A stretch of DNA of 64,000 bases from Candidatus Acetothermia bacterium (GTDB lineage Bacteria > Bipolaricaulota > Bipolaricaulia > RBG-16-55-9 > DRXL01), in the NCBI GenBank assembly GCA_016179105.1, contig JACOSB010000160.1:164-64163 (forward strand), written 5' to 3'. The notes below the pieces were generated by a model, which saw nothing but the letters and a program-made list of their open reading frames with translations, was not told where the DNA came from and did no database searches. This document shows positions 26,541 through 63,862 of the stretch, piece by piece; within the stretch, counting starts at the first letter, position 1; the number at the start of each line of letters is the position of its first letter. Made by a program: the position numbers and the translations under genes.

Positions 26541-27081
26541 TCTGCAGGCCTACTAGGAGAGGCGAGATCAGAGTTTCGTTCTTTTTATAAAACCCGGCAC
26601 GCTCGTATCTTTTTCGTCCCAACATCAAGACTTCGATCGTCTCATCCTCCGGGTCCACCATCCAGTATTCTTTCACCCCGTGCTTGGCATAGAGTCTGCG
26701 CTTGTAATTTTTGTCTTTTTCTTTTGTAGAAGGCGAGAGAATTTCGATCGCTAGATCGGGTGCGCCATGCACCGCATCTTCGCGAATGATCCGACGTTGC
26801 GCCTTCGAGATAAAAAGAATATCAGGTTCGGCCACTTCTTCTTCCCCTGGTGGGCCAAGTACGACGTCAAAAGGAGCTACGTAAATATGACCCAAGCTAT
26901 GCTCCCGCACATAACGCATTAACAAAAAAGCAAGCGCTATTAAAATCCTCTGGTGTGCTTCATTCGGCGAGGTCATTCGAATCAACTCCCCATCCAACAG
27001 CTCGTAGCGCACACCCTCGACGTAGGGCAGGCTCTTGTAGTCCTCATATGTGAATTTAATTCTCGTATGAGCTTTCGCCAT
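26518..27081 (-). CDS. Uma2-family (DUF820) putative restriction-endonuclease-like protein
   Basis: ...YELLDGELIRMTSPNEAHQRI...PDLAIEILSPST...D...KRRLYAKHGVKEYWMVDPEDETIEVL carries the PD-(D/E)xK-like Uma2 signature. Confidence 0.8.
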   Translation of the reverse strand: MAKAHTRIKFTYEDYKSLPYVEGVRYELLDGELIRMTSPNEAHQRILIALAFLLMRYVREHSLGHIYVAPFDVVLGPPGEEEVAEPDILFISKAQRRIIREDAVHGAPDLAIEILSPSTKEKDKNYKRRLYAKHGVKEYWMVDPEDETIEVLMLGRKRYERAGFYKKNETLISPLLVGLQIALREIF

Positions 27082-60747: not shown

Positions 60748-60770
60748 TAAACCATTTATCTCTCTCACAA

Positions 60771-61316
60771 TCAATTAGACATGAGTGCAAGATAGTCTTC
60801 ACGCGTTAGCTGATAACGAATGACCCCAGGCTCAGAGCCTTGTCCGATAAATTTGAATCCATTCTTCTCTAGCACTCGGATAGAAGGCCGCAGCTCCGGC
60901 AATGTCTCAGCGATCACACCCTTTATCATCGAATGCCCGAAAGCCCAGGCAACAAGAGCGCGTACTGCCTCGCTCCCCTACCCCTGCTTGTGAAATCTTT
61001 CTAGCAATGAGTAGCCAATCTCAACCGTGCCGTCGGGAGAAGGCCTGCCCTTGAAGCCACCGCCTCCTATTAAAATATGCTCTTGCTCATTCTCAGAGCG
61101 CAAGATGAAGTACCATAATCCCCAGCCGTTAGCATCCGGATTCTGTGCAAAATAGTCTCGTGCAGATCTCATCGAGTTTTCATCGTTGAGTGGAGGAGGC
61201 CAGTCTGTAACTTGCGCGTTGAGCAACCGGCTAAACTCGTTGAGATCATTGATTTCTGCTTCAGACAATTCTAGATTTCCAGCCACCAACTCTAAGCGTT
61301 CTGTTTTGATGCGCAA
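60771..61316 (-). pseudogene. GNAT-family (RimJ/RimL-like) N-acetyltransferase interrupted by an in-frame TAG stop at 60975-60977
   Basis: N-terminal part ends ...SLLERFHKQG* and continues in the same frame GSEAVRALVAWAFGHSMIKGVIAETLPELRPSIRVLEKNGFKFIGQG..., a classic GNAT C-terminal. The stop replaces the residue before GSEA, which is commonly Y/K/Q. Confidence 0.6.
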
Positions 61317-61508
61317 AGTATTCCCTCTTCCCCAGTCAAGCCATCCGTCCTCTGGCCGTTTCTCTTTTGCCCATAGGGACCCATTTATGCAGCTTCCGCC
61401 AGCGATTGATCCTCAGCCTGATGAGGAAGATGCAGAATTTTCCACTCAGCTCCGCGGTCATTCTTTCTTGGATAATCTTGGCCATGCACTTCTCTTTGCG
61501 TGAAGAGT

Positions 61509-62465
61509 TTAGAATTCTGCCACGAGCTTATCCAGCTTCTTGGCCACTAAGAACGGTAAATAATATCGCGGAGATAAAACTCCACTGGAACGGTATGTCA
61601 CTAGATCACTCTGAACCGTCTTCCAAATGTCATCTCGAACTCGCTCATAATCTGAACGGATTTGACTGAACAAAATCAAAATTGTAAGGTTCAAGATCGT
61701 ACCACCGATAGTCTGGAAATTGGTATGCCCATGAAGAGATGAATTTCTCCACTCATATATCAGGTCGAATGGATCCTTGGTGCTATCTAAAGTAGAAAGG
61801 TGTTTTCGCATCTCGTCCAATTTTGATTTCAAATCTGTATCTGATACGTCTTTATAAAATAGGTGTAGCAAATCTCGAAGACTGCTACACTTCCTTTGAC
61901 TTAGACTAGAGCTATGAGGATCGTATTCCTTCAAATTGCCGCCACGACCTTGCACATTGAATGGTTTTATCACATTCCCGTCATAATCTACATAAGCTTT
62001 GCAAACCTTTTTTAGAATTGCTTCAAGAAGAGGAAGCGATAGATATGCTAAAATCAGATGTGCTTTGAGCATGAATTTTTCATTAAATCCAAGTGGATTG
62101 GTCTGCCTTGACAGAGTAATGCTAGTAATAGAGGCTAGAACACAGGTTTCCAATAGTTCTTGAACATATCGTTCTTCATTAGAAAATGTTCTTGGTAAAG
62201 AAAATAGAAATAATTCTCCAGCCCACGCCCAAAATAATTGATGATCAAGACTAATTACTGTATTCATTCCCTTTAGCAACAATACTTTGCTAAGACTTGT
62301 GCAAGCTATCTGGATTTCCGGATAGTTTAATTCATGAAATTTGATGCCGTTTTTGTGTAGCCGAAATTTTTCTGGATCTTCATGAGAACTACTACTTGAT
62401 CGCTGATAAGCAGCTATCCACGCATCACATAACTGTCTAATCAAATCTTCTCGAGACTGGACCAT
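61509..62465 (-). CDS. Hypothetical protein (318 aa) with no recognisable domains, in an AT-rich (~40% GC) island
   Basis: Continuous ORF in a region whose GC content is about 15-20 points below its flanks. Rich in L/K/S/N. Confidence 0.5.
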   Translation of the reverse strand: MVQSREDLIRQLCDAWIAAYQRSSSSSHEDPEKFRLHKNGIKFHELNYPEIQIACTSLSKVLLLKGMNTVISLDHQLFWAWAGELFLFSLPRTFSNEERYVQELLETCVLASITSITLSRQTNPLGFNEKFMLKAHLILAYLSLPLLEAILKKVCKAYVDYDGNVIKPFNVQGRGGNLKEYDPHSSSLSQRKCSSLRDLLHLFYKDVSDTDLKSKLDEMRKHLSTLDSTKDPFDLIYEWRNSSLHGHTNFQTIGGTILNLTILILFSQIRSDYERVRDDIWKTVQSDLVTYRSSGVLSPRYYLPFLVAKKLDKLVAEF

Positions 62466-62519
62466 AGTTTATTCTCGGGTTTGGTTAGATTAAAAACACG
62501 AACCTTCTTTATAAAGCAA

Positions 62520-62777
62520 TCATGCGTGTTCAATGCCACGTGCATAAGACTCGTTTAACACTCGTATTTCTTCACGGGGCAAGTCAACCAAAATGAAATA
62601 ATCTGCCGGATACAGATAATCTTCTCCGCTCTCGTCGATGACACGCAAATCGCCATCGCGCTCGGCTTCTTTGTCCGGAAGCACGCGATAGATTTTATGC
62701 TTCTCCAACGAGGCAGGATACTCCGAATTATCGATGCAAATTGCGAAGCGGGGAGTAGAAACTTTTCGTGTCGACAT
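62520..62777 (-). CDS. Small hypothetical protein (85 aa), downstream member of a tightly linked two-gene module
   Basis: ORF sits 3 nt after the upstream 78-aa ORF stop. No confident family assignment. Confidence 0.4.
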   Translation of the reverse strand: MSTRKVSTPRFAICIDNSEYPASLEKHKIYRVLPDKEAERDGDLRVIDESGEDYLYPADYFILVDLPREEIRVLNESYARGIEHA

Positions 62778-62780
62778 AAT

Positions 62781-63017
62781 TCAATCTAAGTAGCGCTTGC
62801 GCTTAAACTCTTTTCTGCCGATACCATGTGCTTCGTACCAGTGAATTTCTGCTCGTCGTATGCGACCATTCGCTAAACGAATCATAGCGACTTCTTTGAG
62901 TTTGCGCCAGTGCCCAAGGCCGTACTGTTTTCGCAACCGTGCAACATCTCGAATTGCACTTCCAACCGCAATCATCTCAATCTCAGTGATCTCACTGATG
63001 ATCTCAAAGGATTTCAT
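62781..63017 (-). CDS. Small hypothetical protein (78 aa, basic C-terminus IHWYEAHGIGRKEFKRKRYLD), upstream member of a two-gene module
   Basis: Tightly linked to the 85-aa ORF. Size and arrangement resemble a toxin-antitoxin-like pair. Confidence 0.4.
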   Translation of the reverse strand: MKSFEIISEITEIEMIAVGSAIRDVARLRKQYGLGHWRKLKEVAMIRLANGRIRRAEIHWYEAHGIGRKEFKRKRYLD

Positions 63018-63217
63018 CTGTACTTGCCAGGCAACATCAAATAGCCTTAAGCTCGCTCAGCCGGCCCCGATTTAAAAATCATCAGAGCAATGACATCTTC
63101 GAAGACGCCTCACTTGTGCACGCGCTGACACAAAGTTCTCTCTTCCTACAGCCCAATTCGTTTAAGCGCTTTACCCGATGCTGGATCACGCATCACGTAA
63201 TGCGCATAAATGCGAGT

Positions 63218-63862
63218 CTACTTACTTGATGGTGGCAACAACTGCTCCAAACACTCCATCACCGGCGGCAGCGGCTCCTGCCACAACCACTCTGCCTCAA
63301 ACCAGAAACCCTGCAGCACCGACGAAGTTACTTTACCCGCAGTGATAATCTCCTCTTGATAGCGCCCAGTCGCTTGCCGTCGATCAATGATTATCTTGCG
63401 ATTCTCTGAATCTATAAAAAAGATTTCCCGAATTCCCGCTTCTTGATAAACCTGACGCTTCTCAATCAAATCATACTGCCGCGCCGACTCGGAGAGAATC
63501 TCGACCACTAGATCAGCAGCACCTTCGAATTCTTTCGTCAATGGAGTCGGCACTCGATGTTGTGCCACGAACATAATGTCCGGCGCAAACTTGCGCCCTT
63601 GTGCCAAGCGCATCAAGGTGTTTGGCCCAGTCATGTTGCCTAATCTTTTGGAATCTGCAAAAACCCTCATCAGGCTTGCCAAAAACAATTGAAGGTCGTC
63701 ATGTCTCCACGTCGTCGGCGAGTGCACGATCATCACCCCATCATAGAGCTCAGCCCGAGTCTCTTCGTCCGCCAGCTCTTCAAACTCTTGTTCAGTGATG
63801 CCGAACAAGCGCACCAAGAAGGGCTGACGAACCTCGCGATCTCGAAGCACAAAATGCGCCAT
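63218..63862 (-). CDS. Uma2-family (DUF820) putative restriction-endonuclease-like protein, second copy in the window
   Basis: ...ELYDGVMIVHSPTTWRHDDLQLFL...PDIMFV...ADLVVEILSESARQYDLIEKRQVYQEAGIREIFFID carries the Uma2 PD-(D/E)xK signature. Confidence 0.8.
   Translation of the reverse strand: MAHFVLRDREVRQPFLVRLFGITEQEFEELADEETRAELYDGVMIVHSPTTWRHDDLQLFLASLMRVFADSKRLGNMTGPNTLMRLAQGRKFAPDIMFVAQHRVPTPLTKEFEGAADLVVEILSESARQYDLIEKRQVYQEAGIREIFFIDSENRKIIIDRRQATGRYQEEIITAGKVTSSVLQGFWFEAEWLWQEPLPPVMECLEQLLPPSSK

What the first reader, a model, noticed from the sequence alone, without database searches (positions are those of the whole stretch)
61320..63020. AT-rich (~40% GC) island encoding a 318-aa ORFan and a tightly linked pair of small proteins: candidate horizontally acquired defense or addiction module
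GC content drops about 15-20 points relative to flanks, consistent with foreign origin. The 318-aa protein has no recognisable domain. Anonymous, AT-rich, ~300-aa proteins next to small two-gene modules are typical of abortive-infection or defense islands. The 78-aa and 85-aa ORFs are separated by 3 nt, which is a TA-like organisation. A Uma2 nuclease gene and a nonsense-disrupted GNAT flank the island. This is the best place in the window for an undescribed system.
Basis: partly seen in the sequence, partly recalled or inferred. Interest (0 to 1): 0.5.

Follow-up and report, generated by a model that had tools for sequence, protein, structure and literature searches.

The report
HEPN-like nuclease gene beside toxin–immunity pair
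The "island" is two unrelated mobile modules side by side, a stand-alone HEPN-type probable RNase of the kind prophages carry as anti-phage cargo and a very widespread unnamed toxin–immunity gene pair, both of familiar kinds but from families that no database yet describes.

Summary
Three co-oriented minus-strand ORFs of 78, 85 and 318 aa exist. The gaps are 3 nt and 54 nt. The 318-aa gene has the lowest GC in the window (0.38 against 0.53).

2. It is always a solitary, low-GC gene and repeatedly sits at cargo sites of prophages. I read it as a single-gene abortive-infection nuclease.
3. The 78/85 pair is a separate module. An 85-aa homologue lay directly downstream in 80 of 80 metagenome loci.
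4. In phage contigs the 78-aa domain is the C-terminus of MuF-type head proteins, followed by an overlapping 85-like ORF. That is the polymorphic-toxin-plus-immunity layout.
5. Neither module accompanies the other elsewhere, so the trio is not one system.

The window's toxin copy carries G42E at a near-universal glycine. Sibling strains carry a stop codon there. Activities are inferred, not shown.

The parts
61509..62465 (-). Solitary 318-aa gene: N-terminal conserved helical region (~1-130) plus a C-terminal HEPN-like domain. Probable metal-independent RNase.
61731..61748 (-). R240-N-S-S-L-H245, the Rx4H catalytic motif of HEPN with a polar N after the R.
   Evidence: W239, R240, N241, H245 and G246 are invariant in 99 aligned homologues. 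Coordinates checked. Motif definition from PMC3710099.
62010..62024 (-). E148-A-I-L-K152, the upstream Ex3[KR] motif that is the second HEPN hallmark.
   Evidence: E148 is invariant and K152 is at least 90% conserved. Motif described in PMC3710099 section 6. Coordinates checked.
62781..63017 (-). 78-aa basic protein (pI 10.3): a free-standing copy of a toxin domain that also forms the C-terminus of MuF-type phage head proteins. The window allele has E42 where nearly all relatives have G.
   Evidence: At least 4094 homologues, 75-86% identical across phyla. Fused to Phage_Mu_F or Phage_min_cap2 proteins in most IMG/VR loci examined. Invariant Y32, K39, G51, E57, H59, W60, Y61, E62, A63, K72, K74. 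pI. The E42 codon (62892-62894) and the R54 codon (62856-62858) are polymorphic.
62520..62777 (-). 85-aa acidic protein (pI 4.8): cognate immunity or antitoxin partner of the 78-aa protein.
   Evidence: At least 7998 homologues. Directly downstream of the 78-aa homologue in 80 of 80 metagenome loci, in L015-L027, and as 51-60-aa ORFs that mostly overlap the stop codon of the MuF fusion. Protein identical in sibling strains whose toxin gene has a stop codon.
63218..63862 (-). Uma2-family putative restriction-endonuclease-like gene. It is a neighbour, not part of either module.
   Evidence: Pfam Uma2 E 1.7e-31. PADLOC candidate PDC-S03 E 1.5e-22. Normal GC of 0.51. Absent from all related loci. 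A second paralogue lies elsewhere in the window.
60771..61316 (-). GNAT acetyltransferase interrupted by an in-frame TAG at 60978-60980. It flanks the modules as a decaying gene and is not part of them.
   Evidence: Acetyltransf_3 matches on both fragments. Translation. Stop codon confirmed. The same 112-aa gene call appears in the sibling assembly L070.

Best explanation
Two independent, horizontally mobile conflict modules have landed next to each other, beside a Uma2 gene and a decaying GNAT gene.

Module 1 is the 318-aa gene.
- It belongs to an undescribed family of single-protein HEPN nucleases.
- By analogy with other HEPN enzymes it should dimerise through the HEPN domain. That would form a composite active site from R240/N241/H245, helped by E148/K152, and cut RNA without metal.
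- The equally conserved N-terminal half (R35, N39, D74-H75, W79, W81) most likely keeps the enzyme off until an infection cue arrives. Activation would then arrest translation, which is abortive infection.
- Shown here: family size, motifs, fold, solitary state, low GC, and prophage cargo sites.
- Inferred: RNase activity, dimerisation, the sensor role and the anti-phage function.

Module 2 is the 78-aa and 85-aa pair.
- It is a toxin-immunity (type II TA-like) unit.
- The basic 78-aa protein is the toxin, probably aimed at nucleic acid. The acidic 85-aa protein neutralises it by binding.
- The same domain pair is used by temperate phages as the C-terminal 'warhead' of MuF polymorphic toxins, together with their immunity gene.
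- Shown here: strict pairing, the MuF fusion, and the charge complementarity.
- Inferred: toxicity, neutralisation and the target.
- In this genome the toxin is probably weakened (G42E). In sibling strains it is truncated.
For: Module 1:
- RNxSLHG and Ex3K are invariant or near-invariant in 99 homologues. Both are HEPN hallmarks according to PMC3710099.
- No shared neighbour family was found in 14 genomic loci. No shared small ORF beyond three related prophages, and no conserved upstream DNA except between close relatives, were found in 22 loci.
- The gene is below its locus in GC in every related locus, by up to about 15 points.
- It sits at prophage cargo sites: between the tail-completion and baseplate genes of a P2-like prophage (L063), next to portal and large terminase (L062), between the lysis genes and the terminase (L068), upstream of the terminase (L069), and after a tail-fibre gene (L067). 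PMC9122126 describes the region next to the portal gene as a defence hotspot of P2-like phages.
- Other neighbours include a Swt1-type HEPN protein, an IS110 transposase and UmuDC-like genes.

Module 2:
- Pairing is 80 of 80 in metagenome loci. Gene order and short spacing are conserved in the other free-standing loci.
- In 25 of the 39 IMG/VR loci with an ORF, the domain is the C-terminus of a 363-762-aa protein. Three of those tested carry Phage_Mu_F or Phage_min_cap2. A further six sit at the end of 123-219-aa ORFs. A 39-102-aa ORF follows within -29 to +6 nt in all but one.
- This matches the MuF polymorphic-toxin definition. [quoted passage not shown]
- pI is 10.3 for the 78-aa protein and 4.8 for the 85-aa protein.
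- The toxin gene has a nonsense allele while the immunity protein is unchanged in sibling strains.

Independence of the two modules.
Against: Module 1:
- No Pfam HEPN model matches the query or any of the 99 family members.
- No PADLOC model matches.
- Foldseek against the PDB found nothing.
- hhalign against two single HEPN sequences found nothing.
- There was no match in GenBank phages or plasmids.
- Some chromosomal neighbourhoods are unremarkable.

Module 2:
- No activity can be assigned.
- Not every MuF C-terminal extension is a proven toxin.
- Two SNPs in 237 nt is not significantly above the background of 29 in 7481 nt.

No experiment supports either function.
Confidence: 0.6

Rival explanations
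1. One reading: the 78-aa, 85-aa and 318-aa genes form one three-gene defence or addiction system acquired as a unit.
For: They are co-oriented and close together, with gaps of 3 nt and 54 nt. No terminator-like site lies between them. The same arrangement is present in sibling assemblies.
Against: None of 14 genomic and 8 viral loci with a 318-aa homologue has the pair. None of 80 metagenome loci with the pair, nor the other loci checked, has the 318-aa gene. GC differs between the parts, 0.38 against 0.46-0.47. The sibling assemblies are more than 99% identical strains, so they are not independent evidence.
Confidence: 0.05
2. The 318-aa protein is not an active nuclease. It is a helical protein with another role, such as a regulator, a lysogenic-conversion factor or a phage accessory protein, and the RNxxxH match is coincidental or non-catalytic.
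Confidence: 0.15
3. The 78/85 pair is not toxin and immunity. It is a domesticated phage head-assembly or DNA-binding domain with its small chaperone or partner, with no addiction or killing function.
For: The domain is attached to MuF head-morphogenesis proteins, whose extensions are not all proven toxins. The fold matches include PC4-like ssDNA binders. No known toxin Pfam or PADLOC model matches.
Against: Thousands of free-standing copies lie outside phage contexts, beside other TA pairs and IS elements. Pairing is strict with overlapping or near-abutting ORFs. The charges are opposite. The upstream gene has a nonsense allele while the partner is kept. The small ORF sits between the MuF gene and the next downstream gene, as immunity genes do.
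Confidence: 0.15
4. The 318-aa HEPN protein is a toxin whose antitoxin is the adjacent 85-aa protein or an unseen small RNA or peptide, so it is a conventional TA toxin rather than a self-regulated defence protein.
For: Many HEPN toxins have partners such as MNT or RnlB (PMC3710099). The gene lies 54 nt downstream of the 85-aa gene.
Against: No conserved neighbouring ORF of 25 aa or more, and no conserved upstream DNA apart from close relatives, was found in 22 loci. The 85-aa family never accompanies it elsewhere. A conserved N-terminal region of about 130 aa offers an internal regulator.
Confidence: 0.05

Closest known systems
ApeA (single-gene HEPN anti-phage system; bioRxiv 10.64898/2026.01.26.701840)
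   Same: It is one protein, mostly helical, with a C-terminal diverged HEPN domain carrying the Rx4H site and non-HEPN N-terminal parts that regulate it. It works as an abortive-infection RNase. UniRef labels two homologues of the 318-aa protein 'ApeA-like'.
   Different: [quoted passage not shown] The 318-aa protein is about half that size. Neither it nor its family matches HEPN_Apea, ApeA_NTD or any PADLOC model.
DARNA (single-protein HEPN tRNA nuclease; bioRxiv 10.64898/2026.02.22.705581)
   Different: DARNA is 456 aa with the HEPN domain at the N-terminus (R117, H122) and a C-terminal ssDNA-sensing domain. Here the order is reversed and the partner region is unrelated in size.
Csm6 HEPN domain (PDB 8jbc, 5yjc)
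   Different: Csm6 has a CARF sensor domain and works with type III CRISPR. No CARF domain and no CRISPR context are present here.
MuF polymorphic toxins of temperate phages and their immunity genes (PMC5576092)
   Same: The 78-aa domain is found as the C-terminal extension of Phage_Mu_F and Phage_min_cap2 proteins, with a small 85-like ORF immediately downstream. That is the defining layout.
   Different: The window copy has no MuF domain. It is a free-standing two-gene module. The domain matched no Pfam toxin family in my scans. Whether it equals the paper's Ct_MAD profile could not be tested.
Type II toxin-antitoxin systems with the toxin gene first (HigBA, HicAB type)
   Same: There are two small adjacent genes, a basic upstream protein and an acidic downstream partner. 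The distribution is patchy and multi-phylum, in TA-rich neighbourhoods.
   Different: There is no match to any TA family in Pfam, NCBIfam or PADLOC. No DNA-binding domain is evident in the 85-aa protein. Autoregulation and toxicity are untested.

Membership tests
HEPN superfamily | Rx4-6H motif with a polar residue (N, D or H) right after the R | tested here: met
   R240-N241-S-S-L-H245. W239, R240, N241, H245 and G246 are invariant in 99 homologues. Definition from PMC3710099.
HEPN superfamily | Upstream conserved acidic residue, typically in an Ex3[KR] motif | tested here: met
   E148 is invariant and K152 is at least 90% conserved, as E-A-I-L-K in the window copy. Definition.
HEPN superfamily | All-alpha bundle fold superposable on solved HEPN domains | tested here: inconclusive
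HEPN superfamily | Significant match to a curated HEPN sequence model | tested here: not met
   No HEPN Pfam family matched the query or any of the 99 members at E<=1. A profile search of the PDB found nothing. hhalign against HEPN_Swt1 and Ymh single sequences found nothing.
HEPN superfamily | Metal-independent RNase activity dependent on the R and H | not testable with these tools
   This needs biochemistry.
ApeA defence system | Match to the HEPN_Apea or ApeA_NTD1 models, or to the PADLOC ApeA model | tested here: not met
   Searches found none. Only second-hand UniRef cluster names point this way.
ApeA defence system | Three-domain protein of about 580 aa (N-terminal, Mid, HEPN_ApeA) | tested here: not met
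   The protein is 318 aa, and family members are 290-330 aa.
MuF polymorphic toxin plus immunity | N-terminal MuF domain (PF04233 or PF06152) on the toxin protein | tested here: not met
   The window protein is the 78-aa domain alone. Relatives in IMG/VR do carry MuF domains. So the window copy shares the toxin-immunity cassette but is not itself a MuF toxin.
MuF polymorphic toxin plus immunity | Variable C-terminal domain shared with other contexts, followed by a small ORF under 150 aa | tested here: met
   The domain occurs both fused and free. A small 85-like ORF follows within -29 to +6 nt in the fused versions and within 3-35 nt in the free versions.
Toxin-antitoxin / toxin-immunity pair (generic) | Strict co-occurrence and fixed gene order of the two genes over deep divergence | tested here: met
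   80 of 80 metagenome loci. All free-standing loci. Pairing persists at 30-45% identity.
Toxin-antitoxin / toxin-immunity pair (generic) | Toxicity of one partner and neutralisation by the other | not testable with these tools
   Only indirect signs are available: opposite charge and a nonsense allele in the upstream gene with the partner kept.
Known TA toxin families (RelE/ParE, HicA, BrnT and others) | Sequence or clear fold match | tested here: not met
Catalogued anti-phage systems (PADLOC-DB v2.0.0) | Match of any of the three proteins to a defence model | tested here: not met
   Only a spurious Cas6 hit (E 0.038) for the 318-aa protein, and none for the pair. Newer catalogues could not be searched.

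The most novel reading that the evidence does not exclude
Both modules are undescribed families.

- The 78-aa domain may be a new toxin fold or activity that temperate phages carry in their capsids as a MuF 'warhead'. Environmental bacteria hold the same domain in thousands of free-standing copies. Free 85-aa genes, especially where the toxin is broken as in the sibling strains, may then act as immunity against phage-delivered toxin.
- The 318-aa protein may be a new single-gene abortive-infection HEPN nuclease. Its conserved N-terminal half would be a new kind of infection sensor.
Probability: 0.35. Interest if true: 0.65.

Novelty: new member of a known kind. Interest (0 to 1): 0.45.

Why it matters
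Module 1 would add a compact (about 315 aa) single-protein HEPN effector to the anti-phage repertoire. It is spread from Firmicutes to Proteobacteria and Actinobacteria and is carried by prophages at cargo sites. Its N-terminal region is unlike known sensors, so it is a small and tractable model for how HEPN nucleases are switched on.

Module 2 would give a name and a function to one of the more abundant unannotated small-gene pairs in environmental bacteria. There are at least 4,000 and 8,000 clusters at 90% identity, and members stay 65-86% identical across phyla. It would also tie chromosomal TA-like modules directly to capsid-delivered MuF phage toxins.

Neither module changes current concepts. 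Both fill gaps in annotation and in defence and TA catalogues.

Tried and rejected
- Pfam, NCBIfam, PADLOC and PHROGs on all three proteins gave nothing usable.
- A Pfam scan of all 99 family members gave no consistent family.
- PDB sequence and profile searches for all three families found nothing. The exception is a marginal scytalone-dehydratase (NTF2-like) hit for the toxin domain at E 0.019.
- Foldseek against the PDB with the 318-aa model returned only noise.
- The AFDB library was unavailable.
- hhalign of the family profile against a Swt1-type HEPN and a Ymh HEPN sequence from fetched loci found nothing.
- tblastn of the 318-aa protein against GenBank phages and PLSDB plasmids found no match.
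- The phage-type toxin domain against GenBank phages found no match.
- The pair has one hit on plasmids, a Thiodictyon megaplasmid.
- Full-text searches for the motifs HWYEA and GEDYLYP found nothing relevant.
- A search for flanking repeats, att sites, promoters or terminators around the island found nothing above chance.
- A search for a conserved small ORF or conserved upstream DNA next to the 318-aa family found none beyond close relatives.
- N-terminally extended family members gave only one DUF222/HNH remnant, probably a gene-call fusion.
- I suspected by eye that the 49-aa ORF at 61336-61485 was a gene remnant of a known family. It has no Pfam match, so I dropped the idea.
- I suspected that the 94-aa ORF paired with an 85-like paralogue was HicB-like. 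Pfam, the PDB and hhalign gave no support.
- SNP enrichment in the toxin gene is not significant against the background.
Full report
**The observation**

The three ORFs are real and lie on the minus strand. The 78-aa ORF is at 62781-63017, the 85-aa ORF at 62520-62777 and the 318-aa ORF at 61509-62465. The first two are 3 nt apart (TGA-ATT-ATG), and the third follows after 54 nt. Uma2 (63218-63862, Pfam E 1.7e-31) lies upstream. A GNAT gene with an in-frame TAG at 60978-60980 lies downstream. The 318-aa gene has GC 0.382 and GC3 0.33, against a window mean of 0.533 ± 0.033. It is the lowest stretch of that length in the whole 64 kb. The small pair is only mildly low, at 0.46-0.47. The source is a Candidatus Acetothermia metagenome-assembled genome, with locus tags HYR54_17315 to HYR54_17325.

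**The 318-aa protein is not an ORFan**

The word-indexed search gave 136 full-length homologues at 36-56% identity. The named ones come from Entotheonellia, Desulfosporosinus, Peribacillus, Pseudomonas, Microbulbifer, Psychrosphaera, Exiguobacterium and Virgisporangium. The exhaustive profile search gave 457 clusters at E≤1e-3, and 203 of them at E≤1e-30. Nearly all are 290-330 aa. No Pfam, NCBIfam, PADLOC or PHROG family matches the query. None matches consistently across 99 family members either.

**Evidence that it is a HEPN nuclease**

- In the 99-sequence alignment W239, R240, N241, H245 and G246 are invariant. That is an Rx4H motif with N after the R.
- E148 is invariant and K152 is at least 90% conserved, which gives an Ex3K motif about 90 residues upstream.
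- These are the two sequence hallmarks of catalytic HEPN domains, as set out by Anantharaman et al. 2013 (PMC3710099).
- The AlphaFold2 model is confident (pLDDT 91.2, pTM 0.91) and almost entirely helical.

The N-terminal ~130 residues are as well conserved as the HEPN half. L12, C13, L36, F43, D74, H75, W79 and W81 are invariant, and R35 and N39 are at least 90% conserved. That suggests a second functional site. I infer a regulatory or sensor region by analogy with ApeA and DARNA.

**How the 318-aa family lives in genomes**

- In 14 genomic loci from 14 species, none has the 78-aa gene, the 85-aa gene or Uma2 within 10 kb.
- An all-against-all comparison of neighbours found no shared family other than the gene itself.
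- A repeat with ORFs of 25 aa or more, and with upstream DNA, over 22 loci found nothing beyond close relatives.
- The gene is below its locus in GC in every related locus, by up to about 15 points.
- It is split by stop codons or frameshifts in two genomes (L012, L014).
- Eight IMG/VR viral contigs carry it.

PHROG annotation places it at typical cargo sites:
- between the tail-completion and baseplate genes of a P2-like prophage of Uliginosibacterium (L063), together with two small low-GC ORFs;
- next to the portal and large terminase genes (L062);
- between the endolysin/spanin genes and the terminase (L068);
- just upstream of the terminase (L069);
- after a tail-fibre gene (L067).

The region next to the portal gene gpQ is the documented anti-phage hotspot of P2-like phages (PMC9122126). 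Chromosomal neighbours include a Swt1-type HEPN protein, an IS110 transposase and UmuDC-like genes. I conclude that this is a solitary, horizontally mobile conflict gene. It is most likely a self-regulated abortive-infection RNase. The defence role is inferred from location and chemistry, and I rate it at about 0.55.

**The 78/85 pair**

Both proteins belong to very large families with no name. The 78-aa protein has at least 4094 homologues and the 85-aa protein at least 7998. Members are 65-86% identical across Chloroflexota, Cyanobacteria, Poribacteria, Binatia, Nitrospira, Desulfomonile and others.

The order 78 then 85 with a gap of a few nucleotides is conserved in every free-standing locus examined. 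It also holds in 80 of 80 metagenome loci. None of those loci contains the 318-aa gene or Uma2.

The decisive clue came from IMG/VR. In 25 of the 39 loci with an ORF, the 78-aa domain is the C-terminal ~85 residues of a 363-762-aa protein. Three of the long proteins I tested carry Phage_Mu_F (E 2.6e-13) or Phage_min_cap2 (E 1.6e-92 and 9.5e-113) domains. A 39-102-aa ORF, mostly 51-60 aa and recognisably 85-like, starts within -29 to +6 nt of the stop in all but one. This is the architecture of MuF polymorphic toxins with their immunity genes (PMC5576092).

Residues invariant across free and fused forms are Y32, K39, G51, E57, H59, W60, Y61, E62, A63, K72 and K74. The 78-aa protein is basic (pI 10.3, net charge +7.8). 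The 85-aa protein is acidic (pI 4.8, net charge -6.3).

**Local state of the pair**

Four near-identical contigs carry the same Uma2, 78, 85 and 318 arrangement, and the longest of them (L070) also shows the GNAT gene. Two alleles of the toxin gene exist. The window and L071 have E42 together with R54. L070, L072 and L073 have G42 together with a TGA stop at codon 54. G42 is at least 90% conserved even among the MuF-fused forms. So each lineage has one probably damaging change in the toxin, while the immunity protein is identical. The SNP count itself is not above background, which is 29 in 7481 nt. This is suggestive evidence only.

**Comparison with what is known**

For module 1 the closest functional analogues are ApeA and DARNA. 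Both are single-protein HEPN tRNA nucleases with accessory sensing domains. The 318-aa family differs in size, domain order and sequence, and it fails the ApeA model tests. It is a HEPN candidate by motif and fold, not a member of any described HEPN family.

For module 2 the closest known system is the MuF toxin-immunity cassette and, more generically, toxin-first type II TA modules. The window copy lacks the MuF domain. Its toxin domain matches no Pfam toxin family in my scans.

**Verdict**

The region is a small junkyard of mobile conflict genes, not a single novel system. The 'ORFan' label and the three-gene system were not. Both modules appear to be undescribed families of well-known kinds. 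Interest is moderate. The more notable result is that a very abundant anonymous small-gene pair is homologous to a capsid-borne phage toxin cassette.

Noticed in passing
window 62856-62858 and 62892-62894; L070, L072, L073: The toxin gene has two alleles among strains more than 99% identical. The window and L071 have E42 (a near-universal G elsewhere) with R54 intact. L070, L072 and L073 have G42 with R54 changed to a TGA stop. The immunity protein is identical in all of them.
   Followed up: yes
L015 5773-6262; L016 1135-1643; L017-L019 equivalents: A shorter paralogue of the 85-aa protein (75 aa) sits 0.6-0.8 kb downstream of the main pair. It is coupled by overlapping stop and start to an unrelated 94-97-aa ORF with no Pfam or PDB match. 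The 85-like partner therefore seems to pair with more than one upstream protein type. That fits the observation that 85-like proteins are about twice as numerous as 78-like ones.
   Followed up: partly
window 61509-61550 (C-terminus of the 318-aa protein): Homologues end at a conserved ...SFYPPY followed by a stop. The window copy reads ...SPRYYLPF and then runs on for 13 more residues (LVAKKLDKLVAEF), which are modelled with low confidence.
   Followed up: no
L012 9977-10921; L014 3721-4697: Homologues of the 318-aa gene are split into two ORFs in Deefgea rivuli and Terrabacter sp. These are probable pseudogenes.
   Followed up: no
L007 8896-9906: In Psychrosphaera aquimarina a 336-aa Swt1-type HEPN protein (Pfam E 2.8e-9) lies directly upstream of the 318-aa homologue, giving two different HEPN proteins in tandem.
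   Followed up: no
window 60978-60980: The GNAT gene is interrupted by an in-frame TAG. The same truncated 112-aa gene call is present in the sibling assembly L070, so this is not a one-off sequencing error.
   Followed up: partly
window ~26635-27018 (minus strand): A second, diverged Uma2-like sequence lies elsewhere in the window (tblastn 29% identity, E 5e-11). Uma2 is therefore a dispersed multi-copy family in this genome rather than part of the island.
   Followed up: no
window 60750-60759 versus L070: The intergenic stretch between the 3-hydroxyacyl-CoA dehydrogenase/enoyl-CoA hydratase gene and the GNAT gene differs from the sibling assembly by about 19 inserted bases, and SNPs cluster in the GNAT 3' part (60768-60895).
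   Followed up: no
window 61336-61485 (minus strand): A 49-aa ORF fills most of the gap between the 318-aa gene and the GNAT gene. It has no Pfam match, and it may be a remnant of a disrupted gene.
   Followed up: partly
L022 5642-7151; L015 8094-10237; L024 1-1997: Free-standing copies of the pair sit near other conflict genes. These are DMP19 and Ymh (HEPN-family) genes in Desulfomonile, a GmrSD_N/SLFN_AlbA_2 protein in Ardenticatenaceae, and a DUF433/PIN-like TA pair with an IS110 transposase on a Thiodictyon megaplasmid.
   Followed up: no
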